Shown piece by piece: positions 5,992 through 47,205 of a DNA stretch of 64,000 nucleotides. The stretch comes from Theionarchaea archaeon (GTDB lineage Archaea > Methanobacteriota_B > Thermococci > Methanofastidiosales > SZ-28-30): contig JACVGT010000018.1 in the NCBI GenBank assembly GCA_018992685.1, forward strand, positions 128,001 to 192,000, given 5' to 3'. The notes beneath the pieces are model-generated. The model saw nothing but the letters and a program-made list of their open reading frames with translations, ran no database searches and had not been told where the DNA came from. Every line of letters begins with the position of its first letter. The first letter of the stretch is position 1. The position numbers were made by a program, and so were the translations under genes.

Positions 5992-6387
5992 TTTTCACAC
6001 CTCTTGAGATTGTTTTCCTATTCAGTATTTATGTGCTGTATCTGTTATTATTAACAATAAATGTATTTATAAACTTATCGGTTGTATGTTATTTTATAGT
6101 AGATGAGCCGAAATAGAAGTACTGAAAGAGAAATCGTCAATACCCCTGAAATGTCTGAAAGCTCCGATATGCGACCATCTTCCACCCATGGGGGAATCAC
6201 CCTCTCCAGACAATGAGGAACCAGCGAGCAAGATCCAGACAGTGGACCTGCAGTTCTTGGAGGCAGGCAGGAACTTCTATATATTGAACAAAATAATGAT
6301 CCCACCTAAGAGGAGTCAGCTCCGATAATAAAGAGATGATAACAATGATTTATCGGTTAATGGTCACGGTTTCAACTAAATCCGATT

Positions 6388-6918
6388 TTATTCCTCCAGA
6401 AGATCACTGACTTTGAATAGAAGTGATAGAAGAACCTGTTTAACGCTTTCTCTCTCAAGTGCGACACAGGGAATTAATGGAACATCTTCTGGAAGACTGA
6501 GCTTGTCCCTGATCGTATCCAGATCCGCAGCCCCCTCCACGTCCTGTTTATTGGCAGCCACCACAAAAGGAGCGTTCACACATTCAAAAAACTTTAGTAT
6601 CCTCCTGGTTTGCTCAAGGCTCTCAGAATCACTGCTATCCACCAGAACTACATAACCCAGGATACCTTCAGACAGAATCTCCCACATGAAATCAAATCGA
6701 TCTTGGCCTGGAGTGCCAAAGAGATGCAGGGCGATTTCATCATCAATAGTTATCCTTCCAAAATCCATGGCCACGGTCGTTTCCGTTTTCTCTTTTTCGT
6801 TTCCAGAGTGAGAGACAATTCTCTTCTCCGTTTTCACTGGTTCAATCTCACTGATAGACTGAATGAACTGCGTCTTTCCTGCATTGTATGTACCTGTTAT
6901 GAGGATCTTCAACTGCAT
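6388..6918 (-). CDS. MglA/CvnD-like small GTPase (ATP/GTP-binding protein)
   Basis: G1 GTYNAGKT, TTVAMDFG, G3 GTPGQDRF, G4 NKQD. Confidence 0.92.
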   Translation of the reverse strand: MQLKILITGTYNAGKTQFIQSISEIEPVKTEKRIVSHSGNEKEKTETTVAMDFGRITIDDEIALHLFGTPGQDRFDFMWEILSEGILGYVVLVDSSDSESLEQTRRILKFFECVNAPFVVAANKQDVEGAADLDTIRDKLSLPEDVPLIPCVALERESVKQVLLSLLFKVSDLLEE

Positions 6919-6919
6919 A

Positions 6920-7576
6920 CTACATCCCCTGTATCCTCTGGATAACCTTGGAGAGAGTTTGTCTTGTCAACCCCCTAATTCGAAATAAAGCTATCTCGGT
7001 CTTGATATCGACACTAACTTTATTCTCGCAGAAAAAAGGAACTTCCTCCTCAACAATGCCCTGAATTCTCTCTTTCATAGTAGAAACTTCCTCTTGAGAC
7101 GGTACTGTCACGACAACTGTTCCCGAAATCGAAAGTCCATCAACCTGTAACTCCAATCTACTGGTACCTGTACTGCGGCTACTTGCCATGGTTTCGTCTA
7201 TCCTGTCTTGTATTCTGTTTTCCAGTATCCTGGTGTCTGTTCTCCGGAAACTGTCAAAGTACGAATCAACTTTGGAGGCAATTCTCCCAGTAAGAGCACT
7301 GACCAGTGCCAGATTCGCTTTCTCATTGAGAACAGCACCTAGGACAAAATGGCGAGTGACTCGCACCACGATGGAAGAATGAGTAGTTTCCACCCATATT
7401 TGCTGGAGTGAAATTCTATCAGACAAAGCAAGGATTAGGTATCTCAAATTTCGATGAAATAAGGACTCGTCCTTCTCTTGTGACTTGGGAAAGATAAAAA
7501 CCTGCTGGACCCCTCTCGTATCTCTTTTGAGCCCCAAGAAAAAGGCCGATAGACTGGTTGATTCTCTGTTTATCAC
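6920..7576 (-). CDS. Hypothetical protein; N-terminal half resembles a divergent Roadblock domain
   Basis: IWVETTHSSIVVRVTRHFVLGAVLNEKANLALV parallels the Roadblock C-terminal pattern. Probable GTG start at 7576 overlaps the upstream stop (GTGA). Confidence 0.65.
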   Translation of the reverse strand: MINRESTSLSAFFLGLKRDTRGVQQVFIFPKSQEKDESLFHRNLRYLILALSDRISLQQIWVETTHSSIVVRVTRHFVLGAVLNEKANLALVSALTGRIASKVDSYFDSFRRTDTRILENRIQDRIDETMASSRSTGTSRLELQVDGLSISGTVVVTVPSQEEVSTMKERIQGIVEEEVPFFCENKVSVDIKTEIALFRIRGLTRQTLSKVIQRIQGM

Positions 7577-7851
7577 GAAGACTCCCCCATGCAGCAAGAA
7601 GTCAATTCTTCAATTTCCACAAGAAAGGTAATATTAATCCCTTCCGATTCTTCGGGATTGAACCCCTCAGTAAACTTGAGAGGTTCGTCCGATCCGTAGG
7701 CGATCACAGTGTCAACTCCTGAGTCTTTGAATAATACATAGTAGGTATATTCCTCTGAATCTACTTCGTTTTTTCTGGTGAAATAGACTGTGCCTCTGTT
7801 TCTAACCAGTCTCTTGAAATCATCCAGGTTCTTGATTCGCATCCTGATCAT
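7573..7851 (-). CDS. Hypothetical protein (92 aa) in the GTPase operon
   Basis: GGTGA SD plus ATG, co-oriented, stop overlaps the next gene. Confidence 0.75.
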   Translation of the reverse strand: MIRMRIKNLDDFKRLVRNRGTVYFTRKNEVDSEEYTYYVLFKDSGVDTVIAYGSDEPLKFTEGFNPEESEGINITFLVEIEELTSCCMGESS

Positions 7852-7896
7852 GTGATCACCATTTCATCTTGGTTTTTCAAAAGAGAGAAGGAAGAA

Positions 7897-8538
7897 CTAT
7901 GAGAGACTCTCTCTCTTACTCTTTGAGATTCTGAATACATCTGCAGGATTTCCCATTGCTCTGCATTCGATCTCTCTGACTTCATGGCTCGCTCCTGAAA
8001 TCCAGTACATGAAATACTCAAGCATACCTACGTAGATATTGCAGACAGGCTTGTCAGATTTCCGCCCATCGCTTTCGAAGCGATCCCTGTGGATCAAAAG
8101 GAAGTGATCGTCGTGTTCCTGAATTTCTACTTCCGGGAGATCGGAATGAGAAGTGAACATCTTGTCCGTCTGTTCGGCAACTCTGTCCAGCAACATCTTC
8201 ATTTTCTTCTCTTCTGGAATGAGACGGGCCGCTAGTGACAAAGCTTTGGCCATTGCTGAACGTCCCTCTATTCCTTCACGGGCAAATTCACGGCCCACTC
8301 GAAGTGAAAGAGCGCGCGTGCCAGTTTCTCCAAATAACTCATAAAGGGCAGCAAACAACGTCTGTGCATCTGTCACGGGAACCTCAAGCTTCCCGTTGTC
8401 TGGGGGAAAACTGCCGACATACTTCTGTAGGTGAGAATAGTTCAGGACTGAATTGAGTCCATTTATTCCTACAATGTTTTGGATCGTCTTAAGGTAGGTT
8501 TTCATCAAAAAATTGTCAATCATCTTCTCTTCATTCAT
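7897..8538 (-). CDS. V4R (4-vinyl reductase) domain protein
   Basis: PVCNIYVGMLE...EVREIECRAMGNPADVFRISK V4R signature. Confidence 0.88.
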   Translation of the reverse strand: MNEEKMIDNFLMKTYLKTIQNIVGINGLNSVLNYSHLQKYVGSFPPDNGKLEVPVTDAQTLFAALYELFGETGTRALSLRVGREFAREGIEGRSAMAKALSLAARLIPEEKKMKMLLDRVAEQTDKMFTSHSDLPEVEIQEHDDHFLLIHRDRFESDGRKSDKPVCNIYVGMLEYFMYWISGASHEVREIECRAMGNPADVFRISKSKRESLS

Positions 8539-8546
8539 GAACTCAC

Positions 8547-8921
8547 CTACACCAGGGTAGCTACTTCTTCTGCCGTTCTCTTCATGTCCAAAAAGACCAG
8601 CCCTAGTTTGGCCTCTTTTCTTGCCAGAGCAGTCAGGACGGCATTCTCACCTGATGCCATCAACACTATGTATCCATCCTCTCCTTTGACGTAGACTTCT
8701 GACAAATCTCCTCTGGCCAGCTCCTTGGCTGTCCTCTCTCCGAGTGATAGCATTGCAGCAGACATGGCAGCCACTCTATCCTCTTCCACATCTCGGGGTA
8801 GAGCAGACGCTATCATCAATCCATCCACAGAAACGACAGCAGAAGCTTCAATATCAGGAGTTGTAGCTTCCAAGTCTTTCAAGAGATCTGTTAGGTCTTC
8901 AACCTTTGATTTTCTCGCCAT
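8547..8921 (-). CDS. Roadblock/LC7 (MglB/CvnB-like) protein
   Basis: ASAVVSVDGLMIAS, DRVAAMSAAMLSLGER, AKLGLVFLDM. Start set at MARK by comparison with the paralog at 47205. Confidence 0.93.
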   Translation of the reverse strand: MARKSKVEDLTDLLKDLEATTPDIEASAVVSVDGLMIASALPRDVEEDRVAAMSAAMLSLGERTAKELARGDLSEVYVKGEDGYIVLMASGENAVLTALARKEAKLGLVFLDMKRTAEEVATLV

Positions 8922-9249
8922 CTTTCTTTCCTCCTGCATATCATCTATGAGGGTATCACCTTTCATTGAATAAATAAATATATGAAAAAAACAGTGAAAA
9001 CGGGTTTCACCGTCTCAATATAAGATATTCCCCCTCAGTTCGTTGAACTGATGCCAAATGAGAACAGTCTTGCTTATTTCTCCTTCAAAATCATTTTGAG
9101 ACATGTCTCTCATATGGTGATTGAATCTCCCAGTAAATATCAATCAGGTACTTCAGGAACGAAAAAATGAAACTTCTATGGACGCCATTCATACTTCTCC
9201 ATGAGGGGATTCCAGCAATCTTTAAAAGAGCCGCTGGGTACCCACAGAT

Positions 9250-46153: not shown

Positions 46154-46786
46154 CTACGCCAATTTTCTGGCCTTCGAGACCCTGAATACGTCAGCATTAC
46201 ATCCTTGGGCTCTGCACTCAATTTCCTCCACTGTATGAGGATGACCTGTGATCCACTCCACCAATCCATAGAGAAGTCCAGCATAGATATTGCATACAGG
46301 AGACTGGGAGACTAATCCTTCGCTTTCGGTGCTGCTCTTTTCGATGATCAGAAAGTGATCTTCTTCCTCCCTGACCTCAATGCGCGGCCTGTGTTCAGAG
46401 GGCAATCTTTTCTCTGATTCTTCTGCGTATTTTTCCAGAGCAAGACGCATTCTTCTGTTCTCTGGCAGAAGGTGTGATGCTGCAAGAAGTGCTTTTGCCA
46501 TTGTACCTGCCTCCACGACTCCTACCCGCACAAATTCGCGGCCAGCTCTGAACTGGAGGGCGCGAGCACCCTTCTCACCAAACAGCTCAGTCAGGCCTGC
46601 TACTAGGCTCCGAACGTCCTGCAGAGGGATTTCTATGCCATCATTCTGGGGAGGCAATTCCTCAATGTATTTCTGCAGGCGGGCGAAGTTAAGAATCGAT
46701 TTCAGTCCGCCTGGGCCAACAGTATTCTCCAATGTCTCTAGGAAGATTCTCATTGTGAGATTGTCCATTTTTCGCTCATCAGACAT
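46154..46786 (-). CDS. V4R domain protein (paralog of 7897-8538)
   Basis: PVCNIYAGLL...VEEIECRAQGCNADVFRVSK. Confidence 0.88.
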   Translation of the reverse strand: MSDERKMDNLTMRIFLETLENTVGPGGLKSILNFARLQKYIEELPPQNDGIEIPLQDVRSLVAGLTELFGEKGARALQFRAGREFVRVGVVEAGTMAKALLAASHLLPENRRMRLALEKYAEESEKRLPSEHRPRIEVREEEDHFLIIEKSSTESEGLVSQSPVCNIYAGLLYGLVEWITGHPHTVEEIECRAQGCNADVFRVSKARKLA

Positions 46787-46833
46787 GATACCACCAATTT
46801 GAACATGAATCCTCTCATTCTGACTGTTCTGGT

Positions 46834-47205
46834 CTACACCAGCTTCGCTACCTCTTCTGCCGTTCTCTTCATGTCCAGGAAGACCAGCCCCAACTTGGCG
46901 TCTTTTCTTGCCAGTGCAGTCAGGACGGCATTCTCACCTGATGCCATTAGCACCACATACCCGTTCTCTCCCTTAACATAGACTTCTGAGAGGTCTCCCC
47001 TTGCTAGCTCATTTGCTGTCCTCTCTCCCAATGATAACATGGCAGCAGACATAGCAGCAACTCGGTCCTCTTCCACATCTCGGGGTAGAGCGGATGCTAT
47101 CATCAATCCATCCACAGAAACGACGGCAGAAGCTTCAATGTCAGGTGTTGTAGCTTCCAAATCTTTTAGAAGGTCTGTGAGAGCTTCAGTTTTGGGTCTT
47201 GCCAT
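46834..47205 (-). CDS. Roadblock/LC7 protein (near-identical paralog of 8547-8921)
   Basis: Same core sequence; AAGGTGA SD before the ATG at 47205. Confidence 0.93.
   Translation of the reverse strand: MARPKTEALTDLLKDLEATTPDIEASAVVSVDGLMIASALPRDVEEDRVAAMSAAMLSLGERTANELARGDLSEVYVKGENGYVVLMASGENAVLTALARKDAKLGLVFLDMKRTAEEVAKLV

What the first reader, a model, noticed from the sequence alone, without database searches (positions are those of the whole stretch)
6388..8921. Archaeal conservon/MglAB-like G-protein operon with a V4R sensor in place of a kinase
Seen: five co-oriented genes, Roadblock - V4R - 92-aa hypothetical - Roadblock-like hypothetical - small GTPase. Established: MglB/Roadblock proteins act as GAPs for MglA-type GTPases, and actinobacterial conservons pair such GTPases (TTVAMDFG, GTPGQ) with a Roadblock and a sensor kinase. 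Inference: a soluble ligand-sensing GTPase switch with V4R as input and the two hypothetical proteins as adaptor or effector. Its output is unknown.
Basis: partly seen in the sequence, partly recalled or inferred. Interest (0 to 1): 0.7.

Follow-up and report, generated by a model that had tools for sequence, protein, structure and literature searches.

The report
Small-GTPase switch operon with V4R sensor
An uncultured sediment archaeon carries a five-gene operon that joins a small-molecule sensor and two "Roadblock" regulator proteins to a Ras-like GTPase switch, giving a testable idea of how stand-alone V4R sensors and orphan Roadblock proteins work.

Summary
The five co-oriented genes are real and tightly packed (minus strand, 8921-6388): Roadblock (Robl), V4R, a 92-aa protein (g3), a 218-aa protein (g4) and a small GTPase. 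g4 has no sequence family, but its model has a Roadblock fold plus a C-terminal alpha/beta domain.

The GTPase has the MglA group 2-5 hallmarks (GTPGQ, Thr-Thr). Its closest relatives outside its own order are bacterial, mostly Chloroflexota. Fifteen of 80 such bacterial loci also carry a V4R gene.

The operon looks composite:
- **Sensor cassette:** a Robl-V4R pair. Nine of 14 Robl genes in this genome have a V4R neighbour. The Robl copies are about 86% identical with saturated synonymous sites; the V4R copies are 35-62% identical to the operon's.
- **Switch core:** g3-g4-GTPase, found again in a metagenome contig behind a histidine kinase and without V4R.

The sister species has lost g4 and the GTPase at this locus.

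A complex prediction places V4R on the two-helix face of the Robl dimer (score 0.86, best control 0.01). That is the face on which MglB binds MglA. My reading is that V4R gates Robl's access to the GTPase according to its ligand. The output is unknown.

The scan noted the Robl-V4R cassette before on another piece of this genome (e1-702427). I rate this a new variant of a known kind.

The parts
8547..8921 (-). Robl: 124-aa Roadblock/LC7 (CvnB/MglB-type) protein, the nearly invariant 'adaptor'
   Evidence: Pfam Robl_LC7 E 2e-18. Closest solved chains are Thor-RB 7f8m (E 1.3e-37) and CvnB5 3leq (E 6.5e-26). The Asp33-Gly34 pair is invariant. There are 13 paralogs at 69-93% identity; dN/dS is about 0.03 with saturated dS.
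7897..8538 (-). V4R: 213-aa stand-alone V4R (Bet3-like) ligand-binding protein, the variable 'sensor'
   Evidence: Pfam V4R 31.2 bits, cut-off 31. Profile against PDB: MJ1460 E 3.5e-4. C166 and C192 are invariant. Predicted to bind the Robl dimer through residues 21-34, 41 and 64-80. That patch is more conserved than the rest of the protein.
7573..7851 (-). g3: 92-aa protein of unknown fold with an acidic C-terminal tail; travels with g4-GTPase and with Robl-V4R
   Evidence: No Pfam or NCBIfam family. Three homologs among 5.8 billion clusters. Found in 4 of 34 genomes of the order. AF2 model is poor, pLDDT 60. Present in L049, L144 and L145.
6920..7576 (-). g4: 218-aa protein with a divergent Roadblock-fold N-domain (5-110), a long helix and an alpha-beta-beta-alpha-beta C-domain (113-198); its gene lies directly upstream of the GTPase gene
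   Evidence: AF2 pLDDT 84.7. Foldseek MglB 6h5b_B E 1e-5. VIA Z 12.7 to 9jue, 12.6 to 6hjm, and 10.1 to the MamB C-terminal domain for residues 113-198. Family of 17 representatives among 1.84 billion proteins. GTGA start/stop overlap with g3.
6388..6918 (-). Small GTPase of the MglA family, group 2-5 type (CvnD-like), with the bacterial-type G1-G2 insertion
   Evidence: Pfam ATP_bind_1 and Arf. G1 GTYNAGKT, G2 TTVAMDFG, G3 GTPGQ, G4 NKQD; G1-G2 spacing is 30 residues against 17 in short archaeal relatives. 51-57% identical to Chloroflexota homologs. Tree.
8922..9016 (-). Upstream leader with the ribosome-binding site GGAGG (8934-8930), an AT-rich stretch and a terminator-like hairpin at 9016-8988. 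The promoter is not defined.
   Evidence: Read from the sequence. The hairpin comes from a consensus scan only. This part is inference.

Best explanation
This is a soluble small-GTPase switch operon of the MglA/MglB kind. It is built from two modules.

**Module 1, the sensor cassette (Robl-V4R).** Robl is a nearly invariant Roadblock dimer. V4R is a small-molecule-binding protein with many diverged paralogs.

**Module 2, the switch core (g3-g4-GTPase).** g4 is a second, divergent Roadblock-fold protein whose gene is translationally coupled to the GTPase gene.

**Proposed mechanism**
1. The Robl dimer acts on the GTP-bound GTPase through its two-helix (alpha2) face, as MglB does on MglA. This is inferred from homology.
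2. V4R docks on the same face through a conserved N-terminal helical patch. This is predicted, not shown.
3. V4R and the GTPase would then compete for Robl, and ligand binding in V4R's variable pocket would decide whether Robl is free to act on the GTPase. This is inference.
4. About ten V4R paralogs with their own Robl copies would let many ligands converge on the genome's two GTPases of this type.
5. g4, possibly with g3, is the GTPase-proximal adaptor or effector, in the position that DUF742 (CvnC) holds in conservons and PATAN/DUF4388 holds in bacterial relatives.

The cellular output is not known.
For: **Operon anatomy:** gaps of 8, 45, -4 and 1 nt.

**GTPase and Robl carry the group 2-5 hallmarks** defined in PMC4316618 (passages): GTPGQ, Thr-Thr in G2, and an Asp-Gly pair in the MglB homolog.

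**Cassette logic**
- 14 Robl and 17 V4R Pfam hits in the genome, 9 Robl with a V4R within about 1 kb, but only 2 GTPases of this type.
- Robl paralogs: median 86% amino-acid identity, dS 2.6, dN/dS about 0.03 over 21 pairs.
- V4R paralogs: 35-62% identical to the operon's V4R.

**Complex model**
- Robl x2 + V4R scored 0.86, 0.86 and 0.87; best of 3 controls 0.01. That mark was reached by 116 of 157 solved complexes and 2 of 215 mismatched pairs.
- The runs share at least 92% of contacts; partner pLDDT is at least 83.
- The interface is Robl 32-35 and 48-63 of both copies with V4R 21-34, 41 and 64-80.
- V4R interface residues are more conserved than the rest: 0.62 against 0.43, matched by 8 of 5000 random sets.

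**Linkage elsewhere**
- V4R lies 1-2 kb from homologous GTPases in 15 of 80 bacterial loci.
- L081 reads DUF4388-GTPase-Robl-V4R.
- g3-g4-GTPase recurs in L144 and L145 with the same coupled overlaps.

**g4:** Roadblock fold. The paralogous locus reads Robl-g4-like-GTPase.

**Solubility:** no 19-residue window has a mean hydropathy above 1.42 in any of the five proteins.
Against: - No experiment exists. The V4R-Robl contact is a model's confidence, run with my own alignments and with two copies of one chain, which is unlike the tool's calibration set.
- The overlap with the GTPase site is inferred from MglB of Thermus. No Robl-GTPase or g4 complex could be modelled because the cap was one job.
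- The sister species kept Robl-V4R-g3 intact while g4 decayed and the GTPase is gone. L144 and L145 keep the GTPase core with only a 28-residue Robl remnant and no V4R. Each module can therefore persist without the other at this locus.
- 5 of 14 Robl genes have no V4R beside them, and 7 or 8 of 17 V4R genes have no Robl.
- No fused V4R-Roadblock protein was found (weak evidence).
- The V4R Pfam score sits right at the cut-off, and no ligand is known.
- Archaeal paralogs lack the CxxC motif and third Cys that the bacterial V4Rs have, so pocket chemistry is uncertain.
- No RNA data were available.
Confidence: 0.5

Rival explanations
1. Two unrelated modules lie side by side. On this reading the Robl-V4R pair is a self-contained two-protein sensor or scaffold that needs no GTPase, with V4R occupying the site a GTPase would use. 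Its position next to g3-g4-GTPase here is a lineage-specific accident of gene order.
For: - 8 further Robl-V4R pairs in the genome have no GTPase beside them, and there are 14 Robl genes for 2 GTPases.
- The sister species lost g4 and the GTPase at this locus but kept Robl (95% identical), V4R (72%) and g3 (63%).
- L144 and L145 keep g3-g4-GTPase without V4R.
- 328 orphan MglB homologs are reported in PMC4316618.
- V4R is predicted to fill the GTPase-binding face of Robl.
Against: - The five genes are packed with coupled starts.
- V4R is linked to homologous GTPases again in Chloroflexota, in 15 of 80 loci. One locus reads GTPase-Robl-V4R, with Robl 61% identical to this one.
- The paralogous GTPase locus also starts with a Robl of the same invariant type.
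- L144 still carries a Robl remnant in front of g3.
Confidence: 0.27
2. V4R is not the input. It is a partner or output: together with the Roadblock proteins it forms a TRAPP-like regulatory platform (Bet3-fold plus longin/Roadblock-fold subunits) that acts as exchange factor or scaffold for the GTPase. Alternatively, V4R carries a hydrophobic cargo whose handling the GTPase controls.
For: - V4R is the prokaryotic relative of Bet3/TRAPPC3 (PMC2253512, text searched; PMC10933270, passages).
- The V4R-Robl dimer contact is predicted with high confidence.
- Two Roadblock-fold proteins and one Bet3-fold protein sit in one operon with a small GTPase.
Against: - The many diverged V4R paralogs combine a variable middle region with a conserved Robl patch. 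This looks like sensor diversification rather than a constant scaffold.
- The predicted V4R site overlaps the site where MglB binds MglA, which argues against a ternary platform built in that way.
- No exchange activity can be inferred from sequence.
- The partners are Roadblock proteins, not longin proteins.
Confidence: 0.13
3. The operon is an anti-phage or anti-mobile-element system. The diversified V4R sensors would detect an infection signal, and the GTPase with g4 and g3 would be the effector arm.
For: - Distribution is patchy, with signs of transfer between bacteria and archaea.
- There is local decay in relatives and expansion of fast-evolving sensors.
- A 2026 preprint proposes immune roles for some V4R-containing and MglA/MglB-containing systems (10.64898/2026.10.19.760177, passages).
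Against: - None of the five proteins matches PADLOC at E 0.01 or better.
- No nuclease, TIR, pore or other effector domain was found.
- The neighbours are housekeeping genes: LonB, a cytidylyltransferase-like gene, and by my reading of the ORFs a CCA-adding enzyme.
- Robl is under strong purifying selection, not an arms race.
Confidence: 0.05

Closest known systems
MglA family groups 2-5 with coupled MglB homologs, especially the PATAN-linked 'Group 5' (Wuichet & Sogaard-Andersen 2014, PMC4316618)
   Same: - GTPGQ in G3, Thr instead of the Group 1 arginine finger, and NKxD.
- An insertion between G1 and G2 as in bacterial MglA.
- A coupled Roadblock partner with the Asp-Gly pair.
- The nearest relatives are in Chloroflexota, Aquificota, Chlorobiota and Actinomycetota. 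These are the phyla named for Group 5, and the paper says the few archaeal members came by transfer.
   Different: - No PATAN/DUF4388 gene is present here, although it lies directly upstream of the GTPase in 12 of the 15 bacterial loci I sent to Pfam.
- g4, a new Roadblock-fold protein, holds that position instead.
- V4R is part of the operon. That paper does not mention V4R (0 occurrences).
- I did not place the sequence in the paper's own tree, so the group number is inferred.
Actinobacterial conservon CvnA-CvnB-CvnC-CvnD (Komatsu 2006, as summarised in PMC4316618)
   Same: - Roadblock (CvnB-like; 3leq E 6.5e-26) and a GTPGQ GTPase 42-48% identical to the actinomycete homologs found.
- A sensor gene at the head of the operon and one more gene between Roadblock and GTPase.
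- A relative (L144) even has a histidine kinase upstream.
   Different: - No kinase in this operon.
- No DUF742 (Pfam none; hhalign probability 0.1%).
- The GTPase lies outside the conservon clade in the quick tree.
- V4R, g3 and g4 have no conservon counterpart.
MglA/MglB/MglC polarity module of Myxococcus and Thermus
   Same: - A Roadblock dimer acting on a small GTPase through its two-helix face (PMC3199381).
- A second, divergent Roadblock paralog (MglC) in the system. MglC chains are among the fold matches of g4 (7ct3; 7cy1 Z 9.4).
   Different: - Group 1 MglA has TVPGQ and an intrinsic arginine finger, which this GTPase lacks.
- There is no link to motility genes here.
- V4R has no counterpart.
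Eukaryotic TRAPP core and the Asgard Roadblock/TRAPPC3 proteins (Tran et al. 2024, PMC10933270)
   Same: - A Bet3/V4R-fold protein, Roadblock/longin-type folds and a small GTPase.
- Thor-RB (7f8m) is the closest solved relative of this Robl (E 1.3e-37).
   Different: - That paper states that MK-D1 GTPase genes generally do not lie in operons with Roadblock, longin or TRAPPC3 genes. Here they do.
- This organism is not an Asgard archaeon, and the GTPase is MglA-like rather than Rab-like.
- TRAPP uses longin subunits and is an exchange factor. Neither point was tested here.

Membership tests
MglA family, groups 2-5 (PMC4316618) | G3 motif GTPGQ | tested here: met
   G68-T69-P70-G71-Q72 are invariant in 7 of 7 aligned relatives.
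MglA family, groups 2-5 (PMC4316618) | Thr in place of the Group 1 arginine finger, next to the conserved G2 Thr | tested here: met
   T47-T48 in TTVAMDFG, invariant. The criterion was read.
MglA family, groups 2-5 (PMC4316618) | Coupled MglB homolog carrying a conserved Asp-Gly pair | tested here: met
   Robl lies in the same operon. D33 and G34 are invariant in 16 of 16 rows.
MglA family, bacterial type (Group 5 by taxa) | Insertion between G1 and G2; clusters with Chloroflexi/Aquificae/Chlorobi sequences; PATAN gene nearby in some members | tested here: inconclusive
   G1-G2 spacing is 30 residues against 17 in short archaeal GTPases. The sequence nests in a Chloroflexota/Actinomycetota clade with SH-aLRT 89 in a quick tree. 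No PATAN gene is in this operon. It was not placed in the paper's own tree.
Actinobacterial conservon | CvnA-type histidine kinase as first gene | tested here: not met
   None of the five proteins has a kinase domain. A kinase is upstream only in the relative L144.
Actinobacterial conservon | CvnC (DUF742) between Roadblock and GTPase | tested here: not met
   Pfam finds none for g3 or g4. hhalign of the g4 family against a Streptomyces DUF742 protein gives probability 0.1%.
V4R domain (PF02830) | Match to the family model at its curated threshold; conserved Cys positions | tested here: met
   31.2 bits against a cut-off of 31, so marginal. Profile of 17 relatives against MJ1460 V4R gives E 3.5e-4. 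C166 and C192 are invariant, but archaeal copies lack the CxxC motif and third Cys seen in the bacterial ones.
Roadblock/LC7 (for g4) | Roadblock fold: helix, antiparallel sheet, central helix alpha2 | tested here: met
   VIA Z 12.7 (rmsd 2.5, 103 residues) to 9jue and Z 12.6 to MglB 6hjm. Foldseek E 1e-5 to 6h5b_B. The model shows one strand where the first hairpin should be.
Roadblock/LC7 (for g4) | Sequence match to PF03259 | tested here: not met
   No Pfam hit at E 0.1 or better. hhalign against the Robl profile gives probability 16%, though the alignment is in register.
TRAPP-like GTPase regulator | Bet3-fold subunit bound to longin-fold subunits, with exchange activity on a Rab | not testable with these tools
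   Only a predicted V4R-Roadblock contact is available. The partners are Roadblock proteins, not longin, and the GTPase is MglA-like. Activity needs an assay.
Known anti-phage defence systems (PADLOC 2.0) | Match of any component to a defence-system model | tested here: not met
   0 of 5 proteins matched at E 0.01 or better.

The most novel reading that the evidence does not exclude
A Bet3-fold protein (V4R) docks on the GTPase-binding face of a Roadblock dimer and so acts as a ligand-gated 'anti-GAP' or exchange-type regulator of an MglA-like GTPase. This V4R-Roadblock-GTPase triad is shared by archaea and Chloroflexota. It would be the prokaryotic counterpart, and possibly the forerunner, of the Bet3-plus-longin/Roadblock platforms (TRAPP, Ragulator) that control eukaryotic small GTPases. 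It would also explain why prokaryotes hold hundreds of 'orphan' MglB genes and stand-alone V4R genes.
Probability: 0.15. Interest if true: 0.85.

Novelty: new variant of a known kind. Interest (0 to 1): 0.58.

Why it matters
- **Uncharacterised families.** Stand-alone V4R proteins have 'no clear function' (PMC3791482), and no orphan MglB had been characterised as of the 2014 survey (PMC4316618).
- **What this locus adds.** A V4R-Roadblock cassette is physically joined to its likely GTPase, and the complex model gives a concrete interface. That makes a simple bench test possible: binding, competition and GTPase assays, then a ligand screen.
- **Link to eukaryotic GTPase control.** Work on Asgard archaea could not pair GTPases with Roadblock or TRAPPC3 regulators because those genes are not in operons (PMC10933270). 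Here the pairing is written in the gene order, although in a euryarchaeal-type lineage and with a GTPase of bacterial type.
- **New families.** g4 adds a new Roadblock-fold family and g3 a small orphan family, both tied to this switch.

Tried and rejected
- **g4 word-index search:** found only itself.
- **g4 related to PATAN/DUF4388?** hhalign probability 17%, so no relation shown.
- **g4 related to DUF742?** Probability 0.1%.
- **g3:** the model is poor (pLDDT 60), so no fold search was run on it. The ESM Atlas gave no usable hit.
- **The 162-aa gene upstream of Robl-GTPase in family f3 (L019):** I suspected a V4R. Pfam found none and hhalign gave 0.4%, so I dropped it.
- **Fused V4R-Roadblock proteins** ('longer' search): none scored. 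This is weak evidence.
- **Expression:** no RNA holder was listed for this stretch.
- **Gene conversion as the cause of Robl identity:** rejected, because synonymous sites are saturated.
- **Metagenome scan with the 13-row g4 alignment:** the tool could not use it. A 4-row alignment gave 2 loci that carry the same sequence.
- **Careful tree:** it did not finish in the time allowed, so only the quick tree with SH-aLRT support is reported.
- **Defence-system models:** none matched.
- **Literature searches that found no description of a V4R-Roadblock-GTPase operon:**
  - V4R + Roadblock + GTPase + archaea: 3 papers.
  - V4R + MglB: 3 papers.
  - COG2018/COG1719/COG2229: 1 paper, irrelevant.
  - PATAN + Roadblock + GTPase: 25 papers, 15 listed.
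  - conservon + Roadblock + archaea: 2 papers.
- **Papers I could not check:** Koonin & Aravind 2000, Anantharaman et al. 2001 and Makarova et al. 2006 are not in the library. I recall that they discuss Roadblock, V4R and PATAN gene contexts, and they may already note part of this linkage. The supplementary table S2 of PMC4316618 (gene neighbourhoods) was not read.
Full report
**Observation**

The window's minus strand between 8921 and 6388 holds five co-oriented ORFs with almost no spacing.

| Gene | Coordinates | Size | Family evidence |
|---|---|---|---|
| Robl | 8921-8547 | 124 aa | Pfam Robl_LC7, E 2e-18; ATG behind GGAGG |
| V4R | 8538-7897 | 213 aa | Pfam V4R 31.2 bits, cut-off 31, C-terminal 48 residues only |
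| g3 | 7851-7573 | 92 aa | none |
| g4 | 7576-6920 | 218 aa | none |
| GTPase | 6918-6388 | 176 aa | ATP_bind_1 E 1.6e-18, Arf E 1.8e-12 |

- The gaps are 8 nt, 45 nt, a 4-nt GTGA overlap and 1 nt.
- I prefer GTG 7576 as the g4 start because the same 4-nt overlap is seen in a homologous locus.
- No 19-residue window in any of the five proteins has a mean hydropathy above 1.42, so all look soluble.
- Assembled contigs from runs of other studies cover 6300-8658 with 0 differences and 6422-8658 with 3 differences. They break only inside Robl, where depth jumps from 14-48 to 406-1279. That is expected for a multi-copy, near-invariant gene. The gene order is therefore not an assembly artefact.

**The GTPase and Robl**

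- The GTPase has G1 GTYNAGKT, G2 TTVAMDFG, G3 GTPGQ and G4 NKQD.
- In the survey of prokaryotic Ras-like GTPases (PMC4316618, passages read), GTPGQ plus a Thr in place of the Group 1 arginine finger defines MglA groups 2-5. The coupled MglB homologs share an Asp-Gly pair. Robl has that pair (D33-G34, invariant in 16 of 16 rows).
- Robl's closest solved relatives are the Thorarchaeota Roadblock 7f8m (E 1.3e-37) and the conservon protein CvnB5 (E 6.5e-26).

**g4 and g3**

*g4*
- A full HMMER scan of 1.84 billion representatives found 17 relatives.
- The AF2 model built on 13 of them has pLDDT 84.7.
- Residues 5-110 match Roadblock proteins: VIA Z 12.7 to an Asgard Roadblock and Z 12.6 to MglB; Foldseek gives E 1e-5 to MglB.
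- Residues 113-198 form an alpha-beta-beta-alpha-beta domain like the cytoplasmic domains of cation-diffusion transporters (Z about 10). This is a common arrangement, and I read it only as a likely dimerisation or binding domain.
- Sequence profiles show no clear link to Robl (16%, but in register), to DUF4388 (17%) or to DUF742 (0.1%).

*g3*
- It has three homologs in the 5.8-billion-cluster collection. The two homologs that carry a source name are labelled Theionarchaea.
- Its model is poor (pLDDT 60).

**The operon is a composite**

In the window's own genome (3.03 Mb, 45 contigs):
- There are 14 Pfam-level Robl genes and 17 V4R genes. Nine Robl genes have a V4R within about 1 kb, including a second pair inside this window.
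- Only two GTPases of this type exist. The other one sits in a Robl - g4-like (196 aa) - GTPase locus without V4R.
- Eight full-length Robl paralogs are a median 86% identical in protein but 76% in DNA. dS is 2.6 and dN/dS about 0.03 over 21 pairs. They are old copies under very strong constraint, not products of gene conversion.
- The V4R copies are only 35-62% identical to the operon's.

In relatives:
- In the same-genus genome G001, the orthologous locus lies behind what looks like the same flanking gene. It keeps Robl (95%), V4R (72%) and g3 (63%). g4 is a frame-shifted fragment with stops, and there is no GTPase.
- Two metagenome contigs carrying the same sequence read multi-PAS histidine kinase - 28-residue Robl remnant - g3 (48%) - g4 (38%) - GTPase (66%), without V4R.

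So g3-g4-GTPase is one unit and Robl-V4R another. The full five-gene form was seen only in this genome among the 34 genomes of the order that I searched.

**Wider relatives**

- A scan of one genome per species for the GTPase found more than 614 stretches. The best 80 were all bacterial: Chloroflexota at 51-57% identity, plus Aquificota, Caldisericota, Chlorobiota and Actinomycetota, including Streptomyces conservons.
- By tblastn with the archaeal proteins, 15 of these 80 loci hold a V4R homolog 1-2 kb downstream, all from Chloroflexota. 25 of 80 hold a Robl homolog, five of them 61-68% identical. Many loci are short contigs, and divergent Roadblocks are missed, so these counts are lower bounds.
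- I sent ORFs from 15 loci to Pfam:
  - 12 had a DUF4388 (PATAN) gene directly upstream of the GTPase.
  - 6 had a V4R hit, 3 of them above the curated cut-off.
  - L081 reads DUF4388 - GTPase - Robl - V4R.
  - The Streptomyces locus reads kinase - Roadblock - DUF742 - GTPase.
- In a quick maximum-likelihood tree (66 rows, SH-aLRT only, careful search unfinished):
  - The long archaeal GTPases fall inside a Chloroflexota/Actinomycetota clade (support 89), with Aquificota next.
  - The conservon clade lies outside.
  - The short 150-aa archaeal GTPases of the same order sit on a very long branch.
- The G1-G2 spacing is 30 residues here against 17 in those short forms, matching the insertion that PMC4316618 describes for bacterial MglA.
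- This fits that paper's remark that the few archaeal members of the bacterial groups came by transfer. I did not resolve the direction.

**How it may work**

  - Scores were 0.86, 0.86 and 0.87; the best of three controls was 0.01.
  - The tool reports that this mark was reached by 116 of 157 solved complexes and 2 of 215 mismatched pairs.
  - The runs share at least 92% of contacts, and partner pLDDT is at least 83.
  - The counts hold only roughly, because I used my own alignments and two copies of one chain.
  - I know of no solved V4R-Roadblock complex that could have been memorised. TRAPP is the nearest analogue.
- The interface is Robl residues 32-35 (which include the Asp-Gly pair) and 48-63 of both protomers, against V4R residues 21-34, 41 and 64-80. 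I take Robl 48-63 to be helix alpha2 from its position in the Roadblock fold; I did not check this against a model.
- Those V4R positions are more conserved among 13 archaeal paralogs than the rest of the protein (0.62 against 0.43; 8 of 5000 random sets reach this). The middle of the protein is the most variable part.
- My reading, which is inference: V4R sits where the GTPase would sit, so V4R and the GTPase compete for Robl. Ligand binding to V4R would decide which one wins. The many V4R-Robl cassettes would funnel different signals to two GTPases.
- g4 is the GTPase-proximal partner in the slot filled by DUF742 or PATAN elsewhere. It may pair with Robl the way MglC pairs with MglB.
- Nothing here shows the output.

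**Against this reading**

- Both modules survive alone at this locus in relatives.
- 5 of 14 Robl genes lack a V4R neighbour, and 7 or 8 of 17 V4R genes lack a Robl.
- No fusion protein was found.
- No RNA data exist.
- The archaeal V4R copies lack the CxxC motif and third Cys of the bacterial ones.
- The strongest rival is that Robl-V4R works by itself and the adjacency here is incidental.

**Compared with what is known**

- It works like an MglA/MglB or conservon switch and meets the sequence criteria of MglA groups 2-5.
- It fails two defining features of the conservon: no kinase and no DUF742.
- It also lacks the PATAN gene of its nearest bacterial relatives.
- The link to V4R is absent from PMC4316618 (0 mentions).
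- The searches found no paper describing it.
- Tran et al. 2024 state that in MK-D1 the GTPase genes generally do not lie in operons with Roadblock or TRAPPC3 genes.
- Older subscription papers on Roadblock, V4R and PATAN contexts could not be read and may bear on priority.
- The scan itself described the Robl-V4R cassette earlier on another piece of this genome (e1-702427). I reached the same reading independently. What I add is the locus that joins the cassette to a GTPase, the g4 fold, the bacterial parallels and the predicted interface.

**Verdict**

I rate this a new variant of a known kind, of moderate to high interest.

Noticed in passing
window 46154-47205, minus strand: A second Robl-V4R cassette inside the same window. 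Robl is at 46837-47205 (93% identical to the operon's) and V4R at 46154-46786 (47% identical). No GTPase lies beside it.
   Followed up: partly
window 8744-8837: In sediment metagenome contigs, summed depth over the invariant Robl core jumps to 406 and 1279, against 14 and 48 on the flanks, and contigs break there. Many copies or organisms in those samples appear to share this near-identical stretch.
   Followed up: no
L002 (G000:C19:10000-15000), 2058-2522: A 155-aa paralog with only the g4 N-domain lies between two DUF835 sensor proteins, one REC-PAS-DUF835-HTH and one PAS-GAF-DUF835.
   Followed up: partly
G000:C6:3988-5312 (own genome, outside the window): A protein whose N-terminus reads like a MinD/ParA-type ATPase (261 aa), a 70-aa ORF and a divergent 110-aa Roadblock protein lie in a row. 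A 2026 preprint says ParA can displace MglA in MglA-MglB systems.
   Followed up: no
L052, L060, L062, L077 and similar Chloroflexota loci: A conserved bacterial block: DUF4388/PATAN - GTPase - alpha/beta hydrolase - V4R - hexapeptide-repeat transferase. The hydrolase and transferase hint at a small-molecule pathway tied to the V4R sensor.
   Followed up: partly
L020, L021, L023 (genomes G007, G004, G019 of the same order): A different GTPase form about 386 aa long: the small-GTPase domain is fused behind a longer N-terminal region, next to a 217-aa partner and ribosomal protein genes. It resembles the KaiC-GTPase-Roadblock trio described in earlier scan notes.
   Followed up: no
L049 5736-6100 (G001:C147): A decayed g4 remnant in the sister species: two frames, in-frame stops, residues 11-73 only, and no GTPase follows it.
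   Followed up: yes
window 7573-7600 (C-terminus of g3): g3 ends in Cys-Cys-x-Gly within an acidic tail. The pair is kept in the 63%-identical homolog but not in the more distant ones. Its meaning is unknown.
   Followed up: no
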